DNA of 64,000 bases from Bacteroidales bacterium (GCA_016933335.1 JAFGBD010000037.1:9695-73694), one strand, 5' to 3'. Counted from the stretch's first letter, positions 6,103 to 63,162 are shown. The notes: generated from the letters alone by a model not told the origin. Program-made: numbers and translations.

Positions 6103-6849
6103 TTATTTCACTGAAAAGATACTGAACCTGCACAATCTCATTTTCTGCAGCAGATAAGATACCGAAACTCCCAGCACACCGAGCCCGTATTTAATGCTGC
6201 GGAAAAGGTTGATGGAAGAGGCTTCGGCAAAGTACCTGGTGGGACAGGTAACCTCGGCGATCTCGAATCCCGCCATAAATATCTGTGCAATCATCTGGTT
6301 ATCAAAAATAAAATCATCAGAATTCGCATTATAATTGACTGATTCCAGCACTTTGCGTGAAAAGGCCCTGAATCCGGTATGGTATTCGGACAGTTTTTGG
6401 TTCATCAGCAGGTTCTGGACAAATGTAAGCACCCTGTTTGAAAAATACTTATAAACGGGCATGCCTCCTTTCAATGCTCCTTTCCCCAATATTCTCGAAC
6501 CCAGCACTGCATCATACAAACCGTTAGCTATGATGTAACACATGGAGTGGATGAGTTTTGGAGTGTACTGGTAATCGGGGTGCAACATGACCACAATATC
6601 GGAATTTAATTCCAGCGCCTTGTTATAACATGATTTCTGGTTTCCCCCGTAACCTTTGTTACTTTCGTGTTCGATGATATGCCTGATTCCTATCTCCCTG
6701 GCTTTCCGGATGGTCTGGTCACTGCTCAGGTCATCGACCAGGATAATTTCATCAACAACATCCATGGGAATCTCACTGTATGTCTGTTCAAGGGTTTTTT
6801 CTGCATTGAATGCAGGCAATACAACCGTAATTTTCTTATTGTATATCAT
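6103..6849 (-). CDS. Family 2 glycosyltransferase (ArnC / polyprenyl-phosphate sugar synthase-like)
   Basis: 248 aa. Has the GT2 N-terminal pattern VVLPAFNAEKTLEQT...ILVDDLSSDQT...VMLHPDYQY and a C-terminal hydrophobic segment. Confidence 0.85.
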   Translation of the reverse strand: MIYNKKITVVLPAFNAEKTLEQTYSEIPMDVVDEIILVDDLSSDQTIRKAREIGIRHIIEHESNKGYGGNQKSCYNKALELNSDIVVMLHPDYQYTPKLIHSMCYIIANGLYDAVLGSRILGKGALKGGMPVYKYFSNRVLTFVQNLLMNQKLSEYHTGFRAFSRKVLESVNYNANSDDFIFDNQMIAQIFMAGFEIAEVTCPTRYFAEASSINLFRSIKYGLGVLGVSVSYLLQKMRLCRFSIFSVK

Positions 6850-6861
6850 CCGGCGTTCAAA

Positions 6862-8496
6862 TTATTTTTCTCTTAAAAGGAAAACGTAACCGTTCTTTTC
6901 ATACAGGATTTTCAATCCTGGATAATTCCTCAGGATTCTGTCCCTGCTTGTTATTTTGCAGGTAAAATAAGCATTTTTATCAATACTGCCTGTTAGCAGC
7001 CAGTTCTTTTTATAAGATAAAGGATTTTCAGGCATCTTCTTTTCAGTATAAAAAAGGTGGGCGTAGCTTTTATATCCGAGTGTCTCAACATAGGCATCCT
7101 TGTCTGAGAGATCTTTGAAAAAAGCAATGGCAGCACCCTGTGAGTATGCTTCAATTCTGGTTGTGTACATGATCAGGGTAAGCATTACTGACAGTCCTGA
7201 TGATGCAAAGAGGGTAACCATCGCCTGAAAAGACAACCTTTTCTTATGAAAAACGAGAAACAGGATCAGCCCTGCAATAAGGATCAGTCCCGCAACCGGT
7301 TCATAGCCATGCCAGCGTACATCTGCCAGCACGATATTTCTGGCAAAATCGTCTGTTATAAGAGATGAACCTGCAATCTGGTGCTTAAAGTAACCCAGAA
7401 AAGGAAAAACAATAACTATCGCAGATACAATGGAACCAACAATAATCAGTCCGGCAACAATCCATCCCGGTAAGAAAATTTTTCTGTCAATGTATTTGAA
7501 TATGACCAGGGCACTCAGAAATGTAAGCGGGAAATAACACAGCGATGAATAATGAACAATTTTGGTTTTCACGATGGAAAACAGGATCAGAACGATCCAG
7601 AACAAGATGAGCATCCATTTTTTATAATTCCTCTGAACCGGGGTATCATCCCTGAAAGCCAAAAATCCCATGAAAGCCGGAACAGATGCAGGAAAAACCC
7701 CGATCAGCAATACGATAAAATGATAAAGAAAAAAGCCTCCGTGACCGGCATCCTCTGTCTGGAACAGTCTTATCTGATAAGCAATAAAATCCTTTAACAC
7801 TGAGAAATTACCATCCAGTATCTGAAGGATAAACCAGGATCCCCCGGTAAGGAGAAGCACAATGATAAATATAAATGTGTCCCTGATGGATAAGATCGTT
7901 CTGAAACGGTTCAGTGCCCAGTATATGCCGGCAGTCAGCAAAAACACCAGAAGGGCAACCGGGCCCTTGGTCAGTATGGCCAGACCAATGAAGGCTGCTG
8001 ACATGAGTATACTGATGACAGCTTTTTGCCTGGTGTGTTTGATGAAATGGTGAATTCCAAGAAAGATAAAAAGGTTGAACCAGGGATCAATGATGCCCGA
8101 CTTGAAATACAAAAAAGGAAGGATGCTGCAGGCATAGGTCATTACCCACAAAAGTCCGAATTTATTGTTATACAGCTTTCTCCCGGCATTGAAAAGTACC
8201 GGCAATGTAACTGTACCGCAGATGGCATTGGGGAACCTGGCGGCAAATTCATTGATTCCGAATACTTTCATTGAAAGAACCTGTAACCAGATGAACAGAG
8301 GAGGCTTTTCCCAGAATGGCAGGAAATTGATTCTGACTGTAAGATAATCACCTGTTACAATCATTTCCCTGGCCGATTCGGCAAAGTTGATCTCATCCCA
8401 GTCAAAGAGATGAACACCGCCCAGGAATGGCACAAACAAAACCAGGGATGCAACTGCAATTGCAGTGTTTATGAAGATGCTCCTATTTTTTTGCAT
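6862..8496 (-). CDS. ArnT/PMT-like membrane glycosyltransferase (GT39/GT83)
   Basis: 544 aa with more than 10 predicted TM segments. N-terminal loop motif FDWDEINFAESAREM (the DE motif of the ArnT/PMT family). 12-nt gap to the GT2 gene and 14-nt overlap with the PAP2 gene. Confidence 0.85.
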   Translation of the reverse strand: MQKNRSIFINTAIAVASLVLFVPFLGGVHLFDWDEINFAESAREMIVTGDYLTVRINFLPFWEKPPLFIWLQVLSMKVFGINEFAARFPNAICGTVTLPVLFNAGRKLYNNKFGLLWVMTYACSILPFLYFKSGIIDPWFNLFIFLGIHHFIKHTRQKAVISILMSAAFIGLAILTKGPVALLVFLLTAGIYWALNRFRTILSIRDTFIFIIVLLLTGGSWFILQILDGNFSVLKDFIAYQIRLFQTEDAGHGGFFLYHFIVLLIGVFPASVPAFMGFLAFRDDTPVQRNYKKWMLILFWIVLILFSIVKTKIVHYSSLCYFPLTFLSALVIFKYIDRKIFLPGWIVAGLIIVGSIVSAIVIVFPFLGYFKHQIAGSSLITDDFARNIVLADVRWHGYEPVAGLILIAGLILFLVFHKKRLSFQAMVTLFASSGLSVMLTLIMYTTRIEAYSQGAAIAFFKDLSDKDAYVETLGYKSYAHLFYTEKKMPENPLSYKKNWLLTGSIDKNAYFTCKITSRDRILRNYPGLKILYEKNGYVFLLREK

Positions 8497-9178
8497 GGTA
8501 TCCTGATTTAAGAAGATCCGGAATACTCAGGTCCAGCCATTTTTTACCGGATGAGAACAACGTCCGGTACACAAACAGGGCAAATGTAACTCCGATGATT
8601 GATCCGAAATAGATATCTGCCAGAAAATGCTGGGACAAATATACTCTTGAAAAGGCTGTAAGCGTGGCCATAAAGAAACAGATCAGCTTAACCGCATTGT
8701 TCTTTGTCAGGACGGCCAGACATAAGAAAAGTCCGAATGCCGTTGCGGCATGACCTGAAGGAAAGCTCAGGTAATATCTCATTTTAACGCCTTCAATAAG
8801 ATGAAGATCATATATTCCATTCAGATATTTAACAGGCCTTAGCGCATCAGAGAAAAATATTCTTTTGAGGATCTGGACAAAAAGTCCTCCGCCAATATAA
8901 GTAAGCAAAATAAACAATGACTTTCTTAAGGAGACCAGTAGGAAAAGCACGGTTATGATAACGGCGAACAATCCACCGCCAAGGTGGGTTATGTATTTAA
9001 AAAAACCGTCCGATACAGAACTGTGATGATTATTGATAAAAATGTGAACAGCTGTCTTTGATTCCAGAATCAATGGCAGAAGTAAAATTATCAGGAAGAT
9101 AAACCAGGGAATAAAAAAGTACAGGTTTTGGTTAAATAGTTTTTTCACTGAAATTCTGTCAAAAAATTTTCCCTTCAA
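8483..9178 (-). CDS. PAP2-family lipid phosphatase
   Basis: All three PAP2 motifs are present: KRIFFSDALRP, PSGHAATAF and SRVYLSQHFLADI. Multi-TM protein. Confidence 0.85.
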   Translation of the reverse strand: MKGKFFDRISVKKLFNQNLYFFIPWFIFLIILLLPLILESKTAVHIFINNHHSSVSDGFFKYITHLGGGLFAVIITVLFLLVSLRKSLFILLTYIGGGLFVQILKRIFFSDALRPVKYLNGIYDLHLIEGVKMRYYLSFPSGHAATAFGLFLCLAVLTKNNAVKLICFFMATLTAFSRVYLSQHFLADIYFGSIIGVTFALFVYRTLFSSGKKWLDLSIPDLLKSGYHAKK

Positions 9179-9405
9179 AGAAAAGAAATTTTAAGCATTT
9201 GTTTGCCTGAACGGAAACGTTTTTTGACAGATTGTCGGATTCATTGACCGGCATTACCTTGTCAGATACAGAAAACAAGCCTGTTAAATCAATGCAGCAA
9301 GATGCTGTTTTGCAGGTTATTCCGGACTTCATGGAACCGTGTCTCCTGGTTTCTTTCGGGGCTGGTGTAATAAGACATTCGGGCACATCCGGTTTCAGGG
9401 AGTGG

Positions 9406-10089
9406 TCAATCGCCGTTGTCATTTTGATCGGTAAAATCTTCATCAAAACCTGCCGGCTGGTTTTCTGATTCAAAATAATAAATTCTTATTCTTGCAGTAT
9501 CACGGAGAAAATCCACGCGGCCTATCTCTACCCTGTTGATTTTAATACCCGTTCGTTCCTCCAGGTCTTTGATCAGTTCCGCTCTTTTTTCAGGTTTGAT
9601 CAGGTCAATTTTTTCATAAACAATGGTTTTTCTTGATTCATGTTTCAGAAGAAACACCTTTTCGAGCAGGTACGTGACAAGAATAAGGGCAAGATTTGCA
9701 AATATCAGCTCGGCATAGCTTATTTTTTTGTTTGCCAAAGCATTGATTACCGAAATACCGATAATCAGGAACAGATAGGTCATTTCCTTGATATCTATCT
9801 GCAAGGTGCGGTACCGGATGATGCCAAATATGGCAAAGAGTCCCAGTGCAAAACCAAGCTGAAGCTTTACATTCTCAAGGAGAAAGCACAGTGCAAATAT
9901 GACAGAGGATATAAGTATATAAGTGAACAGGTAATCCTTGCGTCTTGCGACAGGGTAATAAATGAACCTCACTATTATAATAACCACAATCAGATTAAAA
10001 CCAAGACGCACCAGTAATTCAAGGAAGTCGGAGAGATTGATTAACCTGATTCCGAATATTTCAGGAACAACTCTTTCAAGGAAGATCAT
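9406..10089 (-). CDS. DUF4956-type membrane protein (partner of the VTC-domain protein)
   Basis: 227 aa with 4-5 hydrophobic helices followed by a soluble C-terminal part (KTIVYEKIDLIKPEKRAELIKDLEERTGIKINRVEIGRVDF). Its start overlaps the VTC gene stop by 14 nt (ATGATCTTCCTTGA). Confidence 0.7.
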   Translation of the reverse strand: MIFLERVVPEIFGIRLINLSDFLELLVRLGFNLIVVIIIVRFIYYPVARRKDYLFTYILISSVIFALCFLLENVKLQLGFALGLFAIFGIIRYRTLQIDIKEMTYLFLIIGISVINALANKKISYAELIFANLALILVTYLLEKVFLLKHESRKTIVYEKIDLIKPEKRAELIKDLEERTGIKINRVEIGRVDFLRDTARIRIYYFESENQPAGFDEDFTDQNDNGD

Positions 10090-10843
10090 TTTGTTTATGT
10101 ATTTTATTGATGAATAATAATTTTTCTTTAAAACGGTTGTATTTTACAGAATCGTCGGTTAAGATCCTGCCGATGCAATATTTGCTTAAACCGCGGGGAG
10201 TGATTCCCAGGTTTTCAAGTATCCCGGTAAAGTCAGATACATGTCCGTTTGAATTGCTGCGCTTGATTTCTGCTATTGCCAGTTTAGGGAGGTCTCTGTG
10301 CACATGTCCGTTATCAAAAAGAATATTGTGGTCAATGGTTATTCTTTCTGTCAGTTCTTTATTTACAAGGGTCATCCTTAGAAAGGACGTATATATTTTT
10401 GGTTCGAGCTGTTTCGAATCAACAGGTGAGTTTTCCCTGATGAAATTTATGGATTCTCTGGTCAGTTCGGTTTCAAGTCCGTGCATCCTGATGCGTTTTT
10501 TAATGGTTCTTCCGTATCTGGTCTTGTATTTTATTTCAAGGAAAAACACATTTGTCTCCTGGTAAGCCCTGAACCTGATCTTATAGCGGTTAACCCTGCC
10601 GTTATGGTGATCGAGATACAGCTTGTTATCGGGAGTGTCATAATATAACGAACGGTAAGAAAAAATACGGTCATCTCCTATTGCCAGGATCCTGTAATAA
10701 GGCATCGATTTTTCAAGGATTTGAGGCAACAAAAGGTTGGAAAAAACATATTTGGAGTCTACCCGGTTCATCAGGCTGACCGAATCCATCTCCTGAAGTG
10801 TTATGCCTTCGAAACCGGATATTATTTTATTGATAGTCTTCAA
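10076..10843 (-). CDS. VTC-domain (polyphosphate polymerase / CYTH-like tunnel) protein
   Basis: 255 aa. Pattern SKYVF...YRSLYYDTPDNKLY...RYKIRFRAY...FLEIKYKTRYGRTIKKR...ERITIDHN...IAEIK matches the alternating basic/acidic beta-strands of VTC/CYTH tunnel enzymes. Confidence 0.75.
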   Translation of the reverse strand: MKTINKIISGFEGITLQEMDSVSLMNRVDSKYVFSNLLLPQILEKSMPYYRILAIGDDRIFSYRSLYYDTPDNKLYLDHHNGRVNRYKIRFRAYQETNVFFLEIKYKTRYGRTIKKRIRMHGLETELTRESINFIRENSPVDSKQLEPKIYTSFLRMTLVNKELTERITIDHNILFDNGHVHRDLPKLAIAEIKRSNSNGHVSDFTGILENLGITPRGLSKYCIGRILTDDSVKYNRFKEKLLFINKIHKQNDLP

Positions 10844-10851
10844 TATTGATA

Positions 10852-11253
10852 TTATTTTGAAAACTTATATTTGTAGACCTTCGACGACACAAGTTTTCCT
10901 TTTTCATTGAATTCTTTTTTGGATATTTTCAACAGACCCTCATAAACATGCTCGGTTTTATAGATGACCCTGCCTGAAGCATCGTATTCAATCTCTGTAA
11001 GTATATCATTGTTCTCATTAAAAGTATACTTGAAGTGCTTCCTGATGCTCCCATCAGGATTATACTTGATTTCCTCGATTAAGTTACCTTCTTCGTCAAA
11101 CCTGTCAATACCTTCAAGGAATATTGATTTACTGTTGGTATGGTTCCATATCTCTTTTGCCACTATCTCTGTGGCCCTGACTTTTCTTTCGGATTGTGCG
11201 CTGACGAACAGGCATACTGACAGAACCAATAAGGATAAGAGAAATTTCTTCAT
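10852..11253 (-). CDS. Small secreted protein built of YD-like hairpin repeats
   Basis: 133 aa with a signal peptide (MKKFLLSLLVLSVCLFVSAQ). Repeats of the type FDEEGNLIEEIKYNPDGSIRKHFKYTF / EYDASGRVIYKTEHVY / FNEKGKLVSSKVYKYKF. Confidence 0.6.
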   Translation of the reverse strand: MKKFLLSLLVLSVCLFVSAQSERKVRATEIVAKEIWNHTNSKSIFLEGIDRFDEEGNLIEEIKYNPDGSIRKHFKYTFNENNDILTEIEYDASGRVIYKTEHVYEGLLKISKKEFNEKGKLVSSKVYKYKFSK

Positions 11254-11254
11254 T

Positions 11255-11983
11255 TTATTTGATAATTACAAGAGAATCGGAGATTACAATATGTTGAAAA
11301 TCCCGGTAGATGGTTACCGTTTTTGAAACAGGGATGAGCATCCGTGCAAAGGGATCAGAAAGGGCATAAACAGTATAGGTGCCTTTAACCAGGTTTTCAA
11401 ACCTGAATGTTCCGTCGTGGTATGTTTTTACATCATCAAAATGAAAGGGATCATCACCGTAAACGATGAATACATCCTCATCTGCCCCGTAATATTCAGC
11501 TATGATATCGGTCCGCTCTGCGTTCTTATCCACCACCCAGACTTTGCCTGTAACAGATGAGGTGCCTTCATCATAGTCGCATTTATCCAGTGTTATTAAA
11601 TCCTGAACATGCACTGTTTCGTTATTGCCCGGAACATGTACATCGGCGATGACAGGTACAAGTCCTGAGGCTGAATTTCCCGAGGTGTCGGCAGAATAAA
11701 CAAATACCCTGTAATTTCCCTTTCTCAGGTATTCGAACCTGTATGTCCCGTCCCAGTTTGTACTGTAACGGTCGCTGTATGTTTTGTTACTGCCGTAAAT
11801 GATGTATACATCGGCATCCGGCACGTAAAAGCTGTCCAGTAAATGTGTAAAAGAATTGTTATATATTTTTGCAAAGACCTTTCCGGTTATTACCGAGTTA
11901 CCTCCTTCACCTTCTTCCTTGCTGCATGAGAATGCCAAAACTGCCAGAACCATCAGATACATCATACGCTTCATACAAATCAC
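11255..11983 (-). CDS. Lipoprotein with two tandem carboxypeptidase-regulatory-like (Ig-like beta-sandwich) domains
   Basis: Lipobox LAFSC. Internal duplication: VITGKVF..DADVYIIYG..WDGTYRFEYLRKGNYRVFVYS versus SVTGKVW..DEDVFIVYG..HDGTFRFENLVKGTYTVYALS. The start could be Met4 (11974). Confidence 0.65.
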   Translation of the reverse strand: MICMKRMMYLMVLAVLAFSCSKEEGEGGNSVITGKVFAKIYNNSFTHLLDSFYVPDADVYIIYGSNKTYSDRYSTNWDGTYRFEYLRKGNYRVFVYSADTSGNSASGLVPVIADVHVPGNNETVHVQDLITLDKCDYDEGTSSVTGKVWVVDKNAERTDIIAEYYGADEDVFIVYGDDPFHFDDVKTYHDGTFRFENLVKGTYTVYALSDPFARMLIPVSKTVTIYRDFQHIVISDSLVIIK

Positions 11984-12000: not shown

Positions 12001-12008
12001 CAAATATA
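12001..12008 (-). promoter_or_regulatory. Candidate -7 box (TATATTTG on the minus strand) for the lipoprotein/VTC/DUF4956 operon
   Basis: The plus strand reads CAAATATA, 18 nt upstream of the ATG at 11983. Confidence 0.35.
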
Positions 12009-12169: not shown

Positions 12170-12331
12170 ATGAAGAAATATAAATGCACTGTCTGCGGAT
12201 ACATTTATGATCCAGAAGAAGGTGATCCGGATGGCGGAATATCTCCCGGAACATCTTTTGAAGATATTCCTGATAACTGGGCATGCCCCGTATGCGGAGT
12301 TTCAAAGGAAGATTTTGAGGAGACTGAATAA
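12170..12331 (+). CDS. rub: Rubredoxin
   Basis: My own translation gives [53 protein letters not shown] (53 aa). It has the two CxxCG knuckles and the conserved YxYDP and DxW of rubredoxins. Absent from the ORF track because it is under 60 aa. Confidence 0.92.
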
Positions 12332-14049: not shown

Positions 14050-14439
14050 CTATTCTATTTGCTTTTTAATTTCTTCAACGAACTCTTTAACCTGTCCGAT
14101 TAAAGGCTCAACAACCTTTTTATCAAAGTCAAACAAATCGCCATAGTCTCCTTTTTGTCTCAAATCGAATAGCTTTGTGAAAAGCCTGCCAAATTTTTTA
14201 TCGATCTTACCCGATTTTATATAATAAAGCCCAAATTGAGTTCTTGCCCCGTCGTGTGTTTGAGTTTCTATATCATTCTTTAATAATAAAGAAAATACAG
14301 CGTAAAAACACGAATAATACAGTCTGTTTAAAACCGCATTCCATCTTTCTTTTTCTGCAAGAATCAAAGCTTCTTCAAACGTTTCCTCTGATCGATGGAA
14401 TCTATATTTTATATAATCATCTTTATTGCCGATTGTCAT
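14050..14439 (-). CDS. HEPN domain protein (putative toxin of an MNT-HEPN pair)
   Basis: 129 aa, all-helical. Has WNAVLNRLYYSCFYAV and FDLRQKGDYGD blocks typical of the small HEPN subfamily paired with minimal nucleotidyltransferases. ATGA overlap with the upstream MNT gene. Confidence 0.85.
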   Translation of the reverse strand: MTIGNKDDYIKYRFHRSEETFEEALILAEKERWNAVLNRLYYSCFYAVFSLLLKNDIETQTHDGARTQFGLYYIKSGKIDKKFGRLFTKLFDLRQKGDYGDLFDFDKKVVEPLIGQVKEFVEEIKKQIE

Positions 14440-14750
14440 AATTGTATTCCCTCTTTAGTCACTTTCTTATATAAAGGGGAAAATATTAAGGCGCTTTTCC
14501 AGTATTCTTTAGGGTAGATGAACGCTGAGATTATTTGTCCTGAATCTAACTCAATATCAAATAAGCCATCCCTGAACCTGTCCTCAATCTCATTTGTAAT
14601 TTCTTTTGAATCAACCAGTATCAAAATATCCCAGTCTGAATCAGGATGAAAGTCTCCCCTGGCCCGGGATCCAAAAAGATATGCAACAGCCTTTGGATCC
14701 TTTTTATGAATTGTTTTTTTAATTCTATCTTGTATCTGATTCTGGTCCAT
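14436..14750 (-). CDS. Minimal nucleotidyltransferase (MNT; putative antitoxin)
   Basis: Has the GSRARGDFHPDSDWDILIL motif (GSxxRG...SDxD) of Pol-beta superfamily NTases. I prefer the start at MDQNQIQ (cat at 14748..14750), because a TATCTTTG -7 box (14769..14776) lies inside the longer ORF-track version (14813). Confidence 0.85.
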   Translation of the reverse strand: MDQNQIQDRIKKTIHKKDPKAVAYLFGSRARGDFHPDSDWDILILVDSKEITNEIEDRFRDGLFDIELDSGQIISAFIYPKEYWKSALIFSPLYKKVTKEGIQL

Positions 14751-14768
14751 TACCTTCAGTATTATACC

Positions 14769-14776
14769 CAAAGATA
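14769..14776 (-). promoter_or_regulatory. Candidate -7 box (TATCTTTG on the minus strand) for the MNT-HEPN operon
   Basis: The plus strand reads CAAAGATA. Exact TAnnTTTG on the minus strand, 19 nt upstream of the ATG at 14750. Confidence 0.35.
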
Positions 14777-14892
14777 TATATTTATTGTGAAAGTCTGAGA
14801 AGTCAAATTGCAATAAGGGCTAATCAATTGTCTTGTCCCCGGTTGCCCGGATTTTAACAATAATATAACATCAAAATTTATCGCAGATTTAT

Positions 14893-35284: not shown

Positions 35285-37213
35285 CTAATACTTAATGATT
35301 TTGGAGGCATAAAGATGATCGTTAATATCTATTAAGAGGATATACGGACCTTTGCGGTATGGCTTGAAATTGATAACTTCATACTGGTTGGTACCGGCAG
35401 CCGAGTGTATAATTTTTCCTGAAAGATCCACAATACGGATAGTATAATCCCCCGGCTCTTCATCAAACAATAGTATAAGCTCGTCTTTTACCGGATTAGG
35501 AAATATGGTATATATATTTCCGGGATTCTTATCTTCTGCGATATGGCCAAACTTGATAACTTCAGACAGCAGCCATTTGTCCGGATCAAATCTCACGTCA
35601 GAGATTATACCGGGCAGATGCTTTTCGAATATCTGAAAATTATTAAGTTGCCTGAATGAGATCGTTGTATCATTTCCGTTGGAAAACAGGACTTCAAAAG
35701 GCATTAAAGTATTAAACAAAGGAGTTGTTTCTGAGCTTGTTTCCTGCAGAGAGTGAATAATAAGCGTATCGTTTCTGGTTAACCATGAGAATGTATAGTA
35801 TGGAAAACCTTCACCATAATACCACTGATTAAAGAAATCAGTAAAATCTATACCTGTCTGCAGTTGCAGGAAGTTTTTGAAATCTTCGCCACTGGCATTA
35901 CCGTTTCTGTAGGTGGATAAAAAATCCCTTAAAATTCTGAAGAACTCTTTGTCATTCCCCAGTTCATGGCGCATCATATGAATGATGGCTGCACCTTTTT
36001 TATATGAGAGGACATAGTCAAATATACGCTTTACGTTCAGCGTATCTTCTGCAGGCAGATATATGCTTCCCGTTTTTATGTTTTTTACATAGTTATGTGC
36101 ATTTTCCATCCAGGCCATTGCACTTTCTTTTGAATCAAGATTTTCGAGAGCCAGGTACTCTGAATAACTTGCAAATCCTTCGTTGATCCATATGTCCTGC
36201 CATGCTGAACAGGTTACATAGTCACCAAACCATTGATGTGCCAGCTCATGGGCAACAAGCAAATAGGAAAAATTACCCAGGGTAGTCATCGTCTGGTGCT
36301 CCATACCACCGCCAAGGGGCACCAGACAGTGTCCGTATTTTTCATCTGCGTATGGATAGGGCCCGTATATTTCACTGAAGAGCAGCAGAAAATTACCTGT
36401 CTCATCAATTCTGCTTTTATTTTCTGTCAGGCAGGGCTCAGGATAAATATAATTTACGACCAGGATCGAATCATCATGCAATGCATCATAAACATAAAAG
36501 CTGTAATCGACATATTTTCCTACAGCCATTGATATCAAATAGTAAGCTATGGGATGACGTGATTTCCATTCGTATCTTGATTTTCCGTCAGGCAGTTTTA
36601 CGGTTTGCTCCAGTATTCCGTTGGATCCTGCTTTCAGGGTTGAGTCAGTTGTAATGAATACGTATGAACTGTCTGCTTTGTCTGTTAATATCTGCTTGCA
36701 CGGATAAAAATACTTTGCTGATAAAGGTTCGGTCAGCGTATAGGTATAATTTCCGAAAGGATCGGCTTTTCTGTTGTAAATGCCTTTCTCCTCACCTGAA
36801 TCATAGGCTTTGCCATGATAATAGACTAAAATATCTGCAATCTGCCCCATAATAAACACATCCGGCAGTTCAATGCTGAGGATGTCTGAATTATGCCGGA
36901 ATTGGGAAGAAATGCTGTTTACCAGAACCGAATCAACCAGGTAATTGCTGACAAGATCAAAACTCAGGCGATTGACCTGCTGCACGACCACCTCAGCCTT
37001 AATAAGGACAGAGCCGGAAATGTATATGCTCGTATCAGAAACATTTAAATCGATTTTATAAAACCTGACATCATAGCTGTCTTTTGAATATTCCGTCTGG
37101 ATATCCCTGTTATTCAGGTTCTGAATAACGGCCTGCTGACTGACTAAATGCCTGATATGCAAAAAACCGAATAATAAAAATACAGGTAAGATTCCTGATA
37201 AAAGTCTCATCAA
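35285..37213 (-). CDS. M1-family zinc aminopeptidase with type IX secretion C-terminal sorting domain
   Basis: GGMEHQ exopeptidase motif, HELAHQWFGD...NEGFASY zinc site, an N-terminal signal peptide, and a C-terminal ~80 aa (IYTIFPNPVKDELILLF...GKIIHS...GPYILLIDINDHLYASKIIKY) typical of the Por/T9SS CTD. Confidence 0.9.
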   Translation of the reverse strand: MMRLLSGILPVFLLFGFLHIRHLVSQQAVIQNLNNRDIQTEYSKDSYDVRFYKIDLNVSDTSIYISGSVLIKAEVVVQQVNRLSFDLVSNYLVDSVLVNSISSQFRHNSDILSIELPDVFIMGQIADILVYYHGKAYDSGEEKGIYNRKADPFGNYTYTLTEPLSAKYFYPCKQILTDKADSSYVFITTDSTLKAGSNGILEQTVKLPDGKSRYEWKSRHPIAYYLISMAVGKYVDYSFYVYDALHDDSILVVNYIYPEPCLTENKSRIDETGNFLLLFSEIYGPYPYADEKYGHCLVPLGGGMEHQTMTTLGNFSYLLVAHELAHQWFGDYVTCSAWQDIWINEGFASYSEYLALENLDSKESAMAWMENAHNYVKNIKTGSIYLPAEDTLNVKRIFDYVLSYKKGAAIIHMMRHELGNDKEFFRILRDFLSTYRNGNASGEDFKNFLQLQTGIDFTDFFNQWYYGEGFPYYTFSWLTRNDTLIIHSLQETSSETTPLFNTLMPFEVLFSNGNDTTISFRQLNNFQIFEKHLPGIISDVRFDPDKWLLSEVIKFGHIAEDKNPGNIYTIFPNPVKDELILLFDEEPGDYTIRIVDLSGKIIHSAAGTNQYEVINFKPYRKGPYILLIDINDHLYASKIIKY

Positions 37214-62154: not shown

Positions 62155-63162
62155 TTAAAAATAATCATAGTTAAGCTTGGTCAGAATCCTGAACTTTGTA
62201 ACGGGATAATAAGTCTCGTATTGGGAACAGATATTATCTTCGTCATACAGGTATGTTCTTACCGAGAAATCTTCGTCTGCGTTTCTTCGCCATCTCATCT
62301 CAGTAAGATTTGCATTCTCATCGTAGAAAAATTGTTTTTTCAGATAGCGTCCTTCATTTGGATTCTCTTCATCAATATTGGTAAGTTCCCCTTTTGAGTT
62401 GTACAGGTAAGTAAGTTTATAATAAAAACTATCTCCCCGGTATTTAACTTCACTGATTACATAACCATCATTGTTATATACGTATAATTTCTTCTCAACC
62501 GGTAAATTATCTGCATTGTATACAACCTCTTCAACGACATTTCCATTACTGTCATATCTCAATGTCAGATATGATATGATATTGTCTGCATGATTGTATA
62601 CGGTTATCTTTGTTATGTCTCCCTCGTGCTCAAAGACTCTTTTTTCATTAATCCTGTCATCCAGGTGATAGGTGATCATTTCCAGTTTCCCCTCATTATT
62701 GTATTCATAATTATTTTGAAAATCTGAAGCACCGTCGAATCCGCTCTCCTGTATTAACAATCCGTCATCGTTATATTTTGAGGTTTTCTGATAGGCTATC
62801 TTAACACCTTTCCTTTTAAGATAATCCGTTCTTTTACCCTCCGGGTTATATTTAAAGGTTTCATAAGCTGCCGTATCCTTGAGTTTGTATGTGATTAGTT
62901 CAATAACATTTCCTGATGGGTCATATTTATTATATGATGTTTTGACTCCGTTCCTGGACGGTTTTCCATTTACATAATTATAATCCCAGGTAGTCATCGA
63001 AAAGATATGATGCTTAATAATCATTTCCTTTTGCTTTTCATCAAAAATATTCTGCGAATGAATGCTGCCAGGTATAATCAGTAATAATAAGAACATGTAT
63101 ATTAAACTGATGCTGAATGAAAAAACATGACCGGATCTTATGTTATTGTAATTTACACACAT
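62155..63162 (-). CDS. Secreted protein made of ~12 YD-like hairpin repeats
   Basis: 335 aa with a hydrophobic N-terminus. Repeats such as YNKYDPSGNVIELITY, FKYNPEGKRTDYL, SKYNDDGLLIQES, YEYNNEGKLEMITY, LRYDSNGNVVEEVVY, YVYNNDGYVISEVKY, YLYNSKGELTNI and FFYDENANLTEM. An alternative start is at 63096. Confidence 0.6.
   Translation of the reverse strand: MCVNYNNIRSGHVFSFSISLIYMFLLLLIIPGSIHSQNIFDEKQKEMIIKHHIFSMTTWDYNYVNGKPSRNGVKTSYNKYDPSGNVIELITYKLKDTAAYETFKYNPEGKRTDYLKRKGVKIAYQKTSKYNDDGLLIQESGFDGASDFQNNYEYNNEGKLEMITYHLDDRINEKRVFEHEGDITKITVYNHADNIISYLTLRYDSNGNVVEEVVYNADNLPVEKKLYVYNNDGYVISEVKYRGDSFYYKLTYLYNSKGELTNIDEENPNEGRYLKKQFFYDENANLTEMRWRRNADEDFSVRTYLYDEDNICSQYETYYPVTKFRILTKLNYDYF

What the first reader, a model, noticed from the sequence alone, without database searches (positions are those of the whole stretch)
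9406..11983. Tight four-gene envelope operon built around a bacterial VTC-domain (polyphosphate-polymerase-like) protein and a DUF4956 membrane partner
Seen in sequence:
- Four minus-strand ORFs are packed with a 1-nt gap (11255/11253), an 8-nt gap (10852/10843) and a 14-nt ATG...TGA overlap (10076..10089).
- An exact TAnnTTTG box precedes them at 12001..12008.
- ORF1 has a lipobox and an internal domain duplication.
- ORF2 is a signal-peptide protein of YD-like repeats.
- ORF3 carries the VTC/CYTH-tunnel pattern (YYDTPD, RYKIRFRAY, FLEIKYK, IAEIK).
- ORF4 is a 4-5 TM DUF4956-type protein.

Established: the VTC domain is the catalytic polyphosphate polymerase module of eukaryotic Vtc4, which functions coupled to a membrane channel. 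Bacterial VTC-domain/DUF4956 pairs are annotated, but to my knowledge they are not functionally characterised.

Inference: this could be a PPK-independent, membrane-coupled polyphosphate (or other triphosphate-tunnel) synthesis and translocation device linked to two envelope proteins. It is the best candidate in the window for an undescribed system.
Basis: partly seen in the sequence, partly recalled or inferred. Interest (0 to 1): 0.6.

Follow-up and report, generated by a model that had tools for sequence, protein, structure and literature searches.

The report
Bacterial VTC-like polyphosphate polymerase envelope operon
A Bacteroidales operon pairs a yeast-Vtc4-like polyphosphate polymerase domain protein with a five-helix membrane protein and two dedicated envelope proteins; it belongs to a widespread, annotated but functionally untested bacterial gene module that may make polyphosphate at, or push it across, the inner membrane.

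Summary
Four tightly packed minus-strand genes sit at 9406-11983. They encode a lipoprotein with a duplicated beta-sandwich domain, a secreted hairpin-repeat protein, a VTC-domain protein (Pfam E=9.5e-27) and a DUF4956 membrane protein (E=3.3e-56). GenBank already annotates them on a Bacteroidales MAG (MBN2214059-62).

- **ORF3.** It models confidently (pLDDT 92) as a triphosphate-tunnel enzyme. Its best structural matches are yeast Vtc3/Vtc4. Every Vtc4 catalytic or tunnel residue I could map is invariant in 93 relatives.
- **ORF4.** It has five TM helices (predicted N-out, C-in), a small ACT-like cytoplasmic domain and an acidic tail. It shows no detectable relation to the Vtc1/3/4 channel.
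- **Linkage.** VTC and DUF4956 are adjacent in 61 of 62 dereplicated loci and usually overlap. ORF1-like genes precede VTC in 30 of 62 loci and ORF2-like genes in 21 of 62. Four of four independently chosen ORF1 homologues sit directly upstream of VTC.
- **Wider module.** Elsewhere the module also carries a DUF2490 outer-membrane barrel and a T9SS-secreted CotH kinase. Both are absent from this window.

No functional study was found. Polyphosphate synthesis is a reasonable inference, and export is a weaker one. I rate this a new variant of a known, uncharacterised kind, of moderate to high interest.

The parts
12001..12008 (-). TATATTTG, a candidate Bacteroidota -7 promoter box. It lies 27 nt upstream of the ORF1 ATG.
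   Evidence: Exact match. The motif is not enriched window-wide. A box is present 70-200 nt upstream of the lipobox Cys codon in 16 of 40 ORF1-family loci against 7% background. Its offset is 82-91 nt in the window, L003, L013 and L001.
11255..11974 (-). ORF1 ('O1'), a 239-aa acidic lipoprotein (mature pI 4.7) with two tandem CarboxypepD_reg / transthyretin-like beta-sandwich domains.
   Evidence: Pfam PF13620 E=1.2e-8, above cut-off. GenBank MBN2214062 has the same 239-aa product. The lipobox Cys and the C-x-K-E-x-G-x-G-G motif are conserved in the family. pI.
11582..11902 (-). ORF1 repeat domain 1 (residues about 25-131)
   Evidence: Self-alignment score 146 against shuffle mean 29 (sd 5.2), z=22. 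Most relatives carry a single copy of about 133 aa; some carry two or three.
11258..11566 (-). ORF1 repeat domain 2 (residues about 137-239)
   Evidence: SpaA and fn3_3 prealbumin-like matches fall at residues 172-213.
10852..11253 (-). ORF2 ('O2'), a 133-aa secreted protein with an SPI signal peptide (…LFVSA|QS) and about five YD/MORN-like beta-hairpin repeats
   Evidence: Sequence. Family found in 28 loci. Relatives hit RHS_repeat or MORN_2 weakly. ORF2 itself has no significant Pfam match. GenBank MBN2214061, 'hypothetical protein'.
10076..10843 (-). ORF3, a 255-aa cytoplasmic VTC-domain triphosphate-tunnel enzyme (pI 9.6). It has no TM segment and no SPX domain. It carries an extra basic C-terminal helix (residues 236-250).
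   Evidence: PF09359 E=9.5e-27. AF2 pLDDT 92.2, pTM 0.89. Top Foldseek PDB hits are Vtc3/Vtc4 at E about 1e-11 and TM 0.58-0.62. Residue map to Vtc4.
9406..10089 (-). ORF4, a 227-aa DUF4956 inner-membrane protein with five TM helices (19-48, 52-70, 74-95, 100-118, 125-146), a cytoplasmic beta-alpha-beta-beta domain (151-206) and an acidic disordered tail
   Evidence: PF16316 E=3.3e-56. AF2 pLDDT 73.7. Only weak ACT-domain fold hits. Positive-inside counts favour N-out, C-in. The gene overlaps ORF3 by 14 nt.
9179..9405 (-). 228-nt spacer between ORF4 and the PAP2 gene. The operon boundary here is uncertain.
   Evidence: No minus-strand TAnnTTTG box in the spacer. The only terminator-like site is a weak 5-bp stem at 9307-9295. 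No Rfam match.
6103..9178 (-). Downstream same-strand trio: PAP2 phosphatase (8483-9178), ArnT-like PMT_2 glycosyltransferase (6862-8496) and GT2 (6103-6849). It is a probable lipid-A / undecaprenyl-phosphate modification module, possibly co-transcribed. It is context and not shown to belong to the system.
   Evidence: Pfam and NCBIfam matches. The same trio follows DUF4956 in L001, L003 and L005 but not in more distant loci.

Best explanation
The locus is the Bacteroidota form of a widespread bacterial VTC-DUF4956 module.

**Shown**
- ORF3 is a soluble, very basic triphosphate-tunnel enzyme of the Vtc4 type.
- ORF4 is a five-helix inner-membrane protein whose small ACT-like domain and acidic tail are predicted to face the cytoplasm.
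- The two genes are almost always adjacent and usually overlap.
- ORF1, a lipoprotein, and ORF2, a secreted repeat protein, are dedicated but optional partners.

**Inferred mechanism**
1. ORF3 docks on an ORF4 oligomer at the cytoplasmic face of the inner membrane.
2. ORF3 polymerises polyphosphate from the gamma-phosphate of ATP, as Vtc4 does.
3. ORF4 anchors and regulates the enzyme and most likely passes the nascent chain into the periplasm.
4. ORF1 and ORF2 receive or organise the chain in the envelope. In other taxa a DUF2490 outer-membrane barrel and a T9SS-secreted CotH kinase would do so too.

My rough confidence by step is about 0.95 for the identity of the parts, 0.55 for polymerase activity and 0.3 for export across the membrane.
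For: **ORF3 is a Vtc4-type enzyme**
- VTC and DUF4956 HMM matches are far above their cut-offs.
- The ORF3 model has pLDDT 92. The yeast VTC complex and Vtc4 crystal structures are its best PDB matches, ahead of YgiF and CYTH hydrolases.
- Profile alignment to Vtc4 (sequence verified against 8i6v_E) gives this map: K31=K200, R90=R264, R92=R266, K105=K281, R156=R361, R167=R373, E192=E426, S220-K221=S457-K458.
- R264, R266 and E426 are the residues mutated to inactivate VTC (PMC9911596). K458 is called the catalytic lysine (PMC4641920).
- All of these residues are invariant in 93 of 93 relatives.
- In TTM hydrolases an acidic patch of four residues binds the second metal. Three of these four positions are basic in ORF3 (R27, K115/R117, K194), as in Vtc4.

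**Gene linkage**
- VTC is followed by DUF4956 in 61 of 62 dereplicated loci.
- The two reading frames overlap in 65 of 86 loci, with a median overlap of 14 nt.
- Operon partners carrying signal peptides recur: O1 in 30 of 62 loci, O2 in 21 of 62 and DUF2490 in 28 of 53. CotH often carries a T9SS tail.
- In the reverse test, four of four O1 homologues chosen without reference to VTC lie directly upstream of VTC.

**ORF4 topology and published phenotype**
- DUF4956 topology is predicted N-out, C-in, with conserved basic clusters on the cytoplasmic loops.
- In Streptococcus intermedius, deletion of the gene corresponding to DUF4956 and of the CotH gene lowers Pel-dependent aggregation (PMC12345266). 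This points to an extracellular read-out.
Against: - No biochemical data exist for any bacterial VTC protein in the searched literature.
- Vtc4 is the only TTM known to polymerise. All other characterised TTMs hydrolyse or cyclise.
- ORF3 keeps an acidic residue, D29 (D or E in 93 of 93), at the second glutamate position of the ExExK hydrolase motif, where Vtc4 has Thr.
- DUF4956 has no sequence or fold similarity to the Vtc1/3/4 transmembrane channel or to any solved transporter.
- The DUF4956 model is only moderately confident (pLDDT 74). No oligomer or complex could be modelled.
- An ACT-like domain suggests regulation more than transport.
- ORF1 is acidic (pI about 4.5), so it is not an obvious polyanion binder.
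- ORF1/ORF2 are absent from about half of relatives. At least one locus, L093, has VTC without DUF4956.
Confidence: 0.45

Rival explanations
1. This is a membrane-tethered but purely cytoplasmic polyphosphate synthase. ORF3 makes polyphosphate that stays inside the cell. ORF4 is an anchor or sensor: its ACT-like domain would bind a metabolite, in the manner of MgtC-type regulators of phosphate and ATP homeostasis. The envelope proteins would be linked only by regulation or physiology, for example cation or phosphate handling.
For: - The catalytic-residue evidence is the same as for the best explanation.
- The ORF4 C-terminal domain is cytoplasmic and gives its only, weak, fold hits to ACT domains.
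- The Streptococcus homologue was described as an MgtC-like TM domain plus an ACT domain.
- ORF4 has no channel-like homology.
- About a quarter of loci carry VTC-DUF4956 with no envelope partner nearby (13 of 49).
Against: - Secreted, lipoprotein or outer-membrane partners recur in the same operon across 39-79% VTC identity.
- O1 is strictly associated with VTC.
- The published phenotype is extracellular, namely Pel aggregation.
Confidence: 0.25
2. ORF3 is not a polymerase. It would be a TTM hydrolase or cyclase, for example a tripolyphosphatase, a polyphosphatase, an NTP-triphosphatase or an adenylate cyclase, acting at the membrane. It might degrade or sense imported or periplasm-derived polyphosphate, or generate a signal. 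ORF4 would be its membrane receptor.
For: - Most characterised TTM enzymes hydrolyse.
- An acidic residue (D29) is retained in the ExExK-equivalent strand.
- YgiF and CYTH proteins are also significant structural matches.
- LytTR two-component regulators are adjacent in 7 of 34 loci, which would fit a signalling role.
Against: - The best fold and HMM matches are to VTC proteins, not to CYTH.
- Three of the four acidic-patch positions needed for the hydrolase second metal site are basic, as in Vtc4.
- The lysine equivalent to Vtc4 K458 is invariant. K458 is catalytic in Vtc4 but dispensable in the hydrolase AtTTM3.
Confidence: 0.2
3. The four genes are not one functional unit. ORF1/ORF2 would be unrelated envelope genes that happen to sit between the rubredoxin gene and the VTC-DUF4956 pair in this lineage.
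For: - Relatives at about 49% identity share the rubredoxin/M20 flank but lack ORF1/ORF2.
- Only 30 of 62 loci have O1 and 21 of 62 have O2.
Against: - O1 and O2 recur next to VTC in many unrelated flanking contexts.
- Four of four O1 homologues chosen independently are directly upstream of VTC.
- The intergenic gaps are 1 nt and 8 nt.
- O1 relatives are few and carry only 'hypothetical protein' names where any name is given (237 hits).
Confidence: 0.05

Closest known systems
Eukaryotic VTC complex (yeast Vtc4 catalytic TTM domain; PDB 3G3Q/3G3R, 8I6V, 7YTJ)
   Same: - ORF3 matches the Pfam VTC domain.
- Its predicted eight-stranded tunnel with plug helix has Vtc3/Vtc4 as the best structural matches.
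- The Vtc4 tunnel and catalytic residues (K200, R264, R266, K281, R361, R373, E426, K458) are all conserved.
- The gene is coupled to a membrane-protein gene.
   Different: - ORF3 has no SPX domain and no fused transmembrane domain.
- The membrane partner is a five-TM DUF4956 protein with an ACT-like domain. It is unrelated, as far as detectable, to the three-TM Vtc1/3/4 channel subunits.
- Sequence identity to Vtc4 is only about 15-18%.
- ORF3 has D29 where Vtc4 has T198.
- The target compartment would be the periplasm rather than a vacuole.
Gram-positive Pel-locus accessory genes cotH - 'PPP' (polyphosphate polymerase) - DUF4956 (- DUF4832), e.g. Streptococcus intermedius SIR_1592-1594
   Same: - The VTC-domain plus DUF4956 gene pair is the same.
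- The function is equally uncharacterised.
- The genes are associated with cell-surface processes.
- The same pair with CotH is seen in C. perfringens NELoc-2.
   Different: - This window has no CotH, DUF4832 or pel genes.
- It instead carries a Bacteroidota-specific lipoprotein (O1) and a secreted repeat protein (O2).
- The host is diderm, so any exported product must also deal with an outer membrane. Related loci carry a DUF2490 barrel.
Fuller Bacteroidota cluster found here: CotH(T9SS) - O1 - O2 - VTC - DUF4956 - DUF2490, e.g. L034, L065, L094, L096 (Sunxiuqinia) and L002 (Flavobacterium)
   Same: The O1, O2, VTC and DUF4956 families appear in the same order.
   Different: - The window lacks DUF2490 and CotH anywhere in its 64 kb.
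- Its O1 is a tandem duplication (239 aa against about 133 aa).
- Its O2 is short (133 aa against 140-200 aa).
- It is followed by a PAP2/ArnT-like/GT2 trio.
Hydrolytic TTM/CYTH enzymes (E. coli YgiF, AtTTM3, ThTPase, CYTH adenylate cyclases)
   Same: They share the tunnel fold and give significant Foldseek matches, E 1e-9 to 1e-4.
   Different: - They rank lower than VTC proteins.
- The ExExK motif and acidic patch are largely replaced by basic residues in ORF3 (R-x-D-x-K; K115/R117; K194).
MgtC/SapB-type membrane proteins (multi-TM domain plus C-terminal ACT-like domain)
   Same: The overall architecture matches what was reported for the Streptococcus DUF4956 homologue. My model shows 5 TM helices plus a beta-alpha-beta-beta domain with weak ACT hits.
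   Different: There is no Pfam MgtC match at E<=0.01. The ACT similarity is not significant (E about 0.4). Homology is not established here.

Membership tests
Pfam VTC domain (PF09359) | HMM score above the gathering threshold | tested here: met
   94.5 bits against cut-off 23, E=9.5e-27, model positions 1-231 of 235.
Triphosphate tunnel metalloenzyme fold | Closed eight-stranded beta-tunnel with inward-facing charged residues and a C-terminal plug helix | tested here: met
   AF2 model with pLDDT 92.2. Foldseek gives 42 PDB hits at E<=1e-3, 39 of them TTM-type proteins (Vtc, YgiF, CYTH, ThTPase, AtTTM3) and 3 Mediator chains. Invariant residues alternate i, i+2, i+4 on the strands. This is a prediction, not a solved structure.
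Vtc4-type polyphosphate polymerase | Catalytic and tunnel residues K200, R264, R266, K281, R361, R373, E426, K458 | tested here: met
   hhalign map gives K31, R90, R92, K105, R156, R167, E192, K221 (E about 1e-4). All are invariant in 93 of 93 relatives. Their role in Vtc4 is taken from PMC9911596 and PMC4641920.
Vtc4-type polyphosphate polymerase | The acidic patch of TTM hydrolases (four Glu) is replaced by basic residues | tested here: inconclusive
   Three positions are basic (R27, K115/R117, K194). The position of the second ExExK glutamate is D29, where Vtc4 has T198. The equivalences rest on a sequence alignment, not on a superposition.
Vtc4-type polyphosphate polymerase | Synthesis of polyphosphate from ATP | not testable with these tools
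   This needs an enzyme assay. No report of one for a bacterial VTC protein was found.
Eukaryotic VTC complex | N-terminal SPX regulatory domain | tested here: not met
   ORF3 is 255 aa and VTC is its only Pfam match. The relatives listed are mostly 232-288 aa, with two outliers of 209 and 352 aa, and all carry PF09359 alone.
Eukaryotic VTC complex | Three-helix (DUF202-type) transmembrane domains of Vtc1/3/4 forming the polyphosphate channel | tested here: not met
   ORF3 has no hydrophobic segment. ORF4 gives no sequence hit to VTC chains in the PDB. It gives no significant Foldseek hit either, although 8I6V and 7YTJ are in the library.
Pfam DUF4956 (PF16316) | HMM score above the gathering threshold | tested here: met
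   190.1 bits against cut-off 30.6, full-length model match. There are 1934 50%-identity cluster representatives at E<=1e-3.
Bacterial cotH-VTC-DUF4956 accessory module (Pel loci) | VTC and DUF4956 genes adjacent on one strand | tested here: met
   14-nt overlap in the window. Adjacent in 61 of 62 dereplicated loci.
Bacterial cotH-VTC-DUF4956 accessory module (Pel loci) | Adjacent CotH kinase gene | tested here: not met
   The CotH HMM finds nothing in the 64-kb window. CotH is present near VTC in some related loci (6 of 34 within 3.5 kb; also L002 and L096).
ACT / MgtC-like architecture (for ORF4) | C-terminal ACT-fold domain | tested here: inconclusive
   The beta-alpha-beta-beta domain at 151-206 has its best Foldseek hits to aspartate-kinase ACT subunits (probability up to 0.9, E about 0.4, 61 columns).
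Bacterial lipoprotein (ORF1) | Signal peptide ending in a lipobox with an invariant Cys | tested here: met
   MKRMMYLMVLAVLAFSC. The Cys follows a hydrophobic stretch in all about 42 family members. No dedicated predictor was available. A-F-S at positions -3 to -1 is non-canonical for E. coli.
CarboxypepD_reg / prealbumin-like beta-sandwich (ORF1) | Pfam score above the gathering threshold | tested here: met
   PF13620 at 35.6 bits against 32.3. SdrD_B, SpaA and fn3_3 are also just above their cut-offs.
RHS/YD repeat (ORF2) | Significant RHS_repeat (PF05593) match | tested here: not met
   ORF2 has no match at E<=0.01. Relatives reach 16-23 bits against a cut-off of 22. The window paralogue at 62155-63162 reaches 30.4 bits. 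'YD-like' therefore describes a pattern and does not establish membership.

The most novel reading that the evidence does not exclude
Bacteria would possess a second, PPK-independent route to polyphosphate that is vectorial. A Vtc4-like polymerase docked on a DUF4956 oligomer would synthesise polyphosphate and thread it across the inner membrane. In Bacteroidota, a dedicated lipoprotein (O1), a periplasmic repeat protein (O2) and a DUF2490 outer-membrane barrel would carry it to the cell surface. There it would serve as a matrix polyanion or as the phosphoryl donor for T9SS-secreted CotH kinases, which have no ATP supply outside the cell. This would be a convergent analogue of the eukaryotic VTC machine built with a different channel.
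Probability: 0.2. Interest if true: 0.85.

Novelty: new variant of a known kind. Interest (0 to 1): 0.55.

Why it matters
Bacterial polyphosphate is generally attributed to PPK1 and PPK2. The Vtc4-type polymerase is treated as a eukaryotic invention whose hallmark is coupling synthesis to membrane translocation.

A bacterial VTC-domain enzyme with every Vtc4 catalytic residue intact would change that picture. It is locked by gene overlap to a conserved membrane protein and embedded among secreted, lipoprotein and outer-membrane partners. It would be a second polyphosphate synthase in bacteria and possibly a polyphosphate secretion pathway.

- **How common it is.** The DUF4956 family has about 1,900 cluster representatives at 50% identity.
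- **Where else it appears.** The module occurs in gut Bacteroides, Flavobacterium, streptococcal and bifidobacterial Pel loci, and a C. perfringens pathogenicity locus.
- **What a mechanism would explain.** It would bear on biofilm matrix chemistry, the role of secreted CotH kinases, and phosphate cycling in sediments and guts.
- **How testable it is.** One enzyme assay and one deletion would settle the core claim.

Tried and rejected
- **Genome-contig scan.** Neighbourhoods were obtained from the look-up of encoding contigs and one metagenome scan instead.
- **PDB sequence searches.** phmmer of ORF3 found nothing. A 27-sequence profile reached only Vtc2, at E=0.04. The residue map therefore rests on hhalign to a Vtc4 sequence that I recalled and then verified against 8i6v_E.
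- **Global hhalign.** It misplaced the C-terminal S-K motif. The local alignment and the predicted plug-helix position resolved this.
- **Gene fusions.** I looked for them as evidence of physical coupling. The long DUF4956 proteins P0371 (+CotH), P0396 and P0464 (+DUF2490) each retain an internal signal peptide. They are merged adjacent ORFs, not fusions.
- **Polyanion binding by the envelope proteins.** O2 and DUF2490 are mildly basic, but O1 is acidic. There is no clear signal.
- **TAnnTTTG enrichment.** The motif is not enriched in the window overall.
- **Rfam.** No RNA family reached threshold anywhere in the window.
- **Literature.** Searches for DUF4956, DUF2490, bacterial VTC, and CotH with polyphosphate found only annotations, operon drawings and one mutant phenotype. 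None reported biochemistry.
- **Complex prediction.** It could not be run because the structure tool takes one chain only.

Full report
**1. What is in the sequence**

The stated coordinates hold four minus-strand ORFs.
The likelier start is ATG 11974, which gives the 239-aa product that GenBank annotates.
- ORF2 is 10852-11253.
- ORF3 is 10076-10843, with a TTG start.
- ORF4 is 9406-10089.

The junctions match the description: a 1-nt gap, an 8-nt gap and a 14-nt ATG...TGA overlap.

TATATTTG lies at 12001-12008 on the minus strand. The motif is not enriched in the window overall (51 matches against 61 expected). A TAnnTTTG box does lie 70-200 nt upstream of the lipobox codon in 16 of 40 ORF1-family loci, against 7% of background windows. 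Its offset is the same in the closest relatives.

The window comes from a Bacteroidales MAG. The four products are GenBank MBN2214062, -61, -60 and -59. They are named hypothetical, hypothetical, 'polyphosphate polymerase domain-containing protein' and 'DUF4956 domain-containing protein'.

**2. The four proteins**

*ORF1* is a lipoprotein.
- Its signal peptide ends in LAFSC. The Cys and a following C-x-K-E-x-G-x-G-G motif are conserved in about 42 relatives.
- It contains two copies of a roughly 105-residue beta-sandwich. The self-alignment gives z=22. CarboxypepD_reg, SdrD_B and SpaA score just above their Pfam cut-offs.
- Most relatives have one copy of about 133 aa.

*ORF2* has an SPI signal peptide and about five 14-residue hairpin repeats.
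- It has no significant Pfam match. Its relatives touch RHS_repeat and MORN_2 only weakly.

*ORF3* matches Pfam VTC at E=9.5e-27.
- It has no hydrophobic segment.
- Its AF2 model has pLDDT 92.
- The best PDB matches are the Vtc3/Vtc4 tunnel domains, at E about 1e-11 and TM about 0.6. Hydrolytic TTMs rank lower.

*ORF4* matches DUF4956 at E=3.3e-56.
- Its AF2 model (pLDDT 74) has five TM helices, a beta-alpha-beta-beta domain and a disordered acidic tail.
- Positive-inside counts over 70 homologues favour N-out, C-in. The soluble domain would then share the cytoplasm with ORF3.
- Foldseek finds nothing significant. The only hints are ACT domains. A profile search of PDB sequences finds nothing.

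**3. Is ORF3 polymerase-like?**

I verified a recalled Vtc4 sequence against 8i6v_E residues 191-481 and aligned the bacterial profile to it.

| ORF3 | Vtc4 |
|---|---|
| R27 / D29 / K31 | R196 / T198 / K200 |
| R90 / R92 | R264 / R266 |
| K105 | K281 |
| K115 / R117 | K294 / R296 |
| F154 / R156 | Y359 / R361 |
| R167 | R373 |
| E192 / K194 | E426 / K428 |
| S220-K221 | S457-K458 |

- The mapped tunnel and catalytic residues (K31, R90, R92, K105, R156, R167, E192, K221) are invariant in 93 of 93 sequences from the fetched loci. Position 154 is F in 73 and Y in 20, and R117 is Q in 2.
- R264A/R266A/E426N is the published inactive VTC mutant. K458 is described as the catalytic lysine.
- Martinez et al. 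report that TTM hydrolases carry a four-glutamate acidic patch, which Vtc4 replaces with basic residues. ORF3 is basic at three of those four positions and keeps Asp at the fourth.
- I conclude that ORF3 resembles Vtc4 more than it resembles any hydrolytic TTM. Activity remains untested.

**4. Conservation of the arrangement**

I collected 96 related loci. I clustered their ORFs and built HMMs for the recurrent families. After dereplication at 90% VTC identity the counts are as follows.

| Partner of VTC | Loci with partner / loci with enough flank |
|---|---|
| DUF4956 directly downstream | 61 of 62 |
| ORF1 family upstream | 30 of 62 |
| ORF2 family | 21 of 62 |
| DUF2490 outer-membrane barrel after DUF4956 | 28 of 53 |
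| CotH kinase within 3.5 kb, often with a T9SS sorting domain | 6 of 34 |
| LytTR two-component genes | 7 of 34 |
| Cthe_2159 | 3 of 41 |

Sources for the table are.

- The VTC and DUF4956 frames overlap in 65 of 86 loci.
- The typical full cluster is CotH - O1 - O2 - VTC - DUF4956 - DUF2490.
- The window has only the middle four. No CotH or DUF2490 lies anywhere in its 64 kb.
- Relatives at 54-79% identity keep the four-gene set plus the divergent rubredoxin gene. Relatives at about 49% identity keep the rubredoxin/M20 flank but lack O1/O2. O1-O2 therefore behaves as an optional cassette.
- In the reverse test, four O1 homologues chosen without reference to VTC all lie immediately upstream of a VTC gene. 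They have 36-50% identity and include Lentimicrobium and Sunxiuqinia isolates. O1 is thus a dedicated partner.

**5. Literature**

- The VTC ('PPP') / DUF4956 / CotH trio is drawn as an accessory set of Gram-positive Pel operons.
- In S. intermedius, loss of SIR_1592 or the CotH gene reduces Pel-dependent aggregation. SIR_1592 is the four-TM-plus-ACT protein that I equate with DUF4956 by gene order.
- The pair, mis-annotated as 'tubulin', lies with CotH in C. perfringens NELoc-2.
- B. thetaiotaomicron BT3498-99 are DUF4956 and DUF2490 proteins.
- DUF2490 is treated as an outer-membrane barrel family.
- I found no biochemical study of a bacterial VTC protein.

**6. Mechanism**

The best-supported reading has four steps.
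1. ORF3 sits on ORF4 at the inner face of the membrane.
2. ORF3 polymerises polyphosphate from ATP.
3. ORF4 anchors or regulates it and may conduct the chain outward.
4. O1 and O2 act on the product in the envelope. Elsewhere DUF2490 and CotH would as well.

The identity of the parts and their genetic coupling are shown. Polymerase activity is inferred from residue conservation. Export is inferred only from the persistent company of exported proteins and from the VTC precedent.

Several points argue against export. DUF4956 has no detectable channel homology. Its soluble domain looks regulatory. O1 is acidic. One locus has VTC without DUF4956.

A speculative detail: the conserved acidic tail of DUF4956 could dock into the strongly basic ORF3.

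The rivals are a cytoplasmic synthase with a regulatory anchor, a hydrolase or cyclase, and a non-unit operon.

**7. Comparison and novelty**

This is not a member of the eukaryotic VTC complex. It has no SPX domain and no Vtc-type TM domain. It does carry a bona fide VTC catalytic domain. It belongs to the annotated but uncharacterised bacterial VTC-DUF4956 module. The O1/O2 association and the wider Bacteroidota cluster do not appear in the papers I could search. I rate it a new variant of a known kind, with interest 0.55. The most novel reading not excluded is a bacterial polyphosphate secretion pathway that may feed extracellular CotH kinases. I give that reading a probability of about 0.2.

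Noticed in passing
window 6103-9178 (-): A PAP2 phosphatase, an ArnT-like PMT_2 glycosyltransferase and a GT2 follow DUF4956 after a 228-nt spacer. The spacer has no TAnnTTTG box and only a weak terminator-like stem. The same trio follows in L001, L003 and L005. It looks like a lipid-A / undecaprenyl-phosphate modification module that may be co-transcribed with the VTC operon.
   Followed up: partly
window 12170-12331 (+): A 53-aa rubredoxin gene is transcribed divergently from ORF1. It was too short for the ORF list. It remains the immediate divergent neighbour of the VTC cluster in relatives down to about 49% identity, whether or not O1/O2 are present. I did not resolve whether this is synteny or a functional link.
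   Followed up: partly
window 14050-14813 (-): Two overlapping genes encode a HEPN protein (PF05168, E=8e-15) and a nucleotidyltransferase (PF01909, E=3.5e-11). This is a toxin-antitoxin-type cassette lying between the DUF4139 (MuiA-family) gene and the sulfatase-domain (PF00884) gene. The equivalent position in L003 has only 93 nt and no such genes.
   Followed up: partly
window 62155-63162 (-): A 335-aa protein is a paralogue of ORF2 (O2-family HMM E=2.5e-24). It is the only member that passes the RHS_repeat cut-off (30.4 bits).
   Followed up: partly
L093 5001-7203 (Lentimicrobium, GCA_013166635.1): The order here is O1 - VTC - DUF2490, with no DUF4956 gene within the 10-kb locus. This is an exception to the near-obligate VTC-DUF4956 pairing.
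   Followed up: no
P0371, P0396, P0464 (from the representative search): These look like DUF4956-CotH and DUF4956-DUF2490 fusion proteins, but each keeps an internal signal peptide at the junction. They are therefore merged calls of adjacent genes, caused by a lost stop codon, an alternative genetic code or an assembly error, and not true fusions.
   Followed up: yes
window 9406-9474 (ORF4 residues 206-227) and relatives: DUF4956 proteins end in a conserved Asp/Glu-rich disordered tail, with a mean of 4.7 acidic residues in the last 21. The partner VTC proteins are strongly basic (median pI 9.5). This suggests an electrostatic docking or autoinhibitory contact.
   Followed up: no
window 10789-10843 (-): GenBank starts ORF3 at the internal ATG (237 aa). 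The 18 residues upstream, reached from the TTG start, are conserved in homologues and modelled at high confidence. The deposited start is therefore probably too short.
   Followed up: partly
window 35285-37213 (-): An M1 peptidase carries a Por_Secre_tail domain, so this organism has type IX secretion substrates. That is relevant because CotH partners of VTC clusters elsewhere carry the same sorting domain.
   Followed up: no
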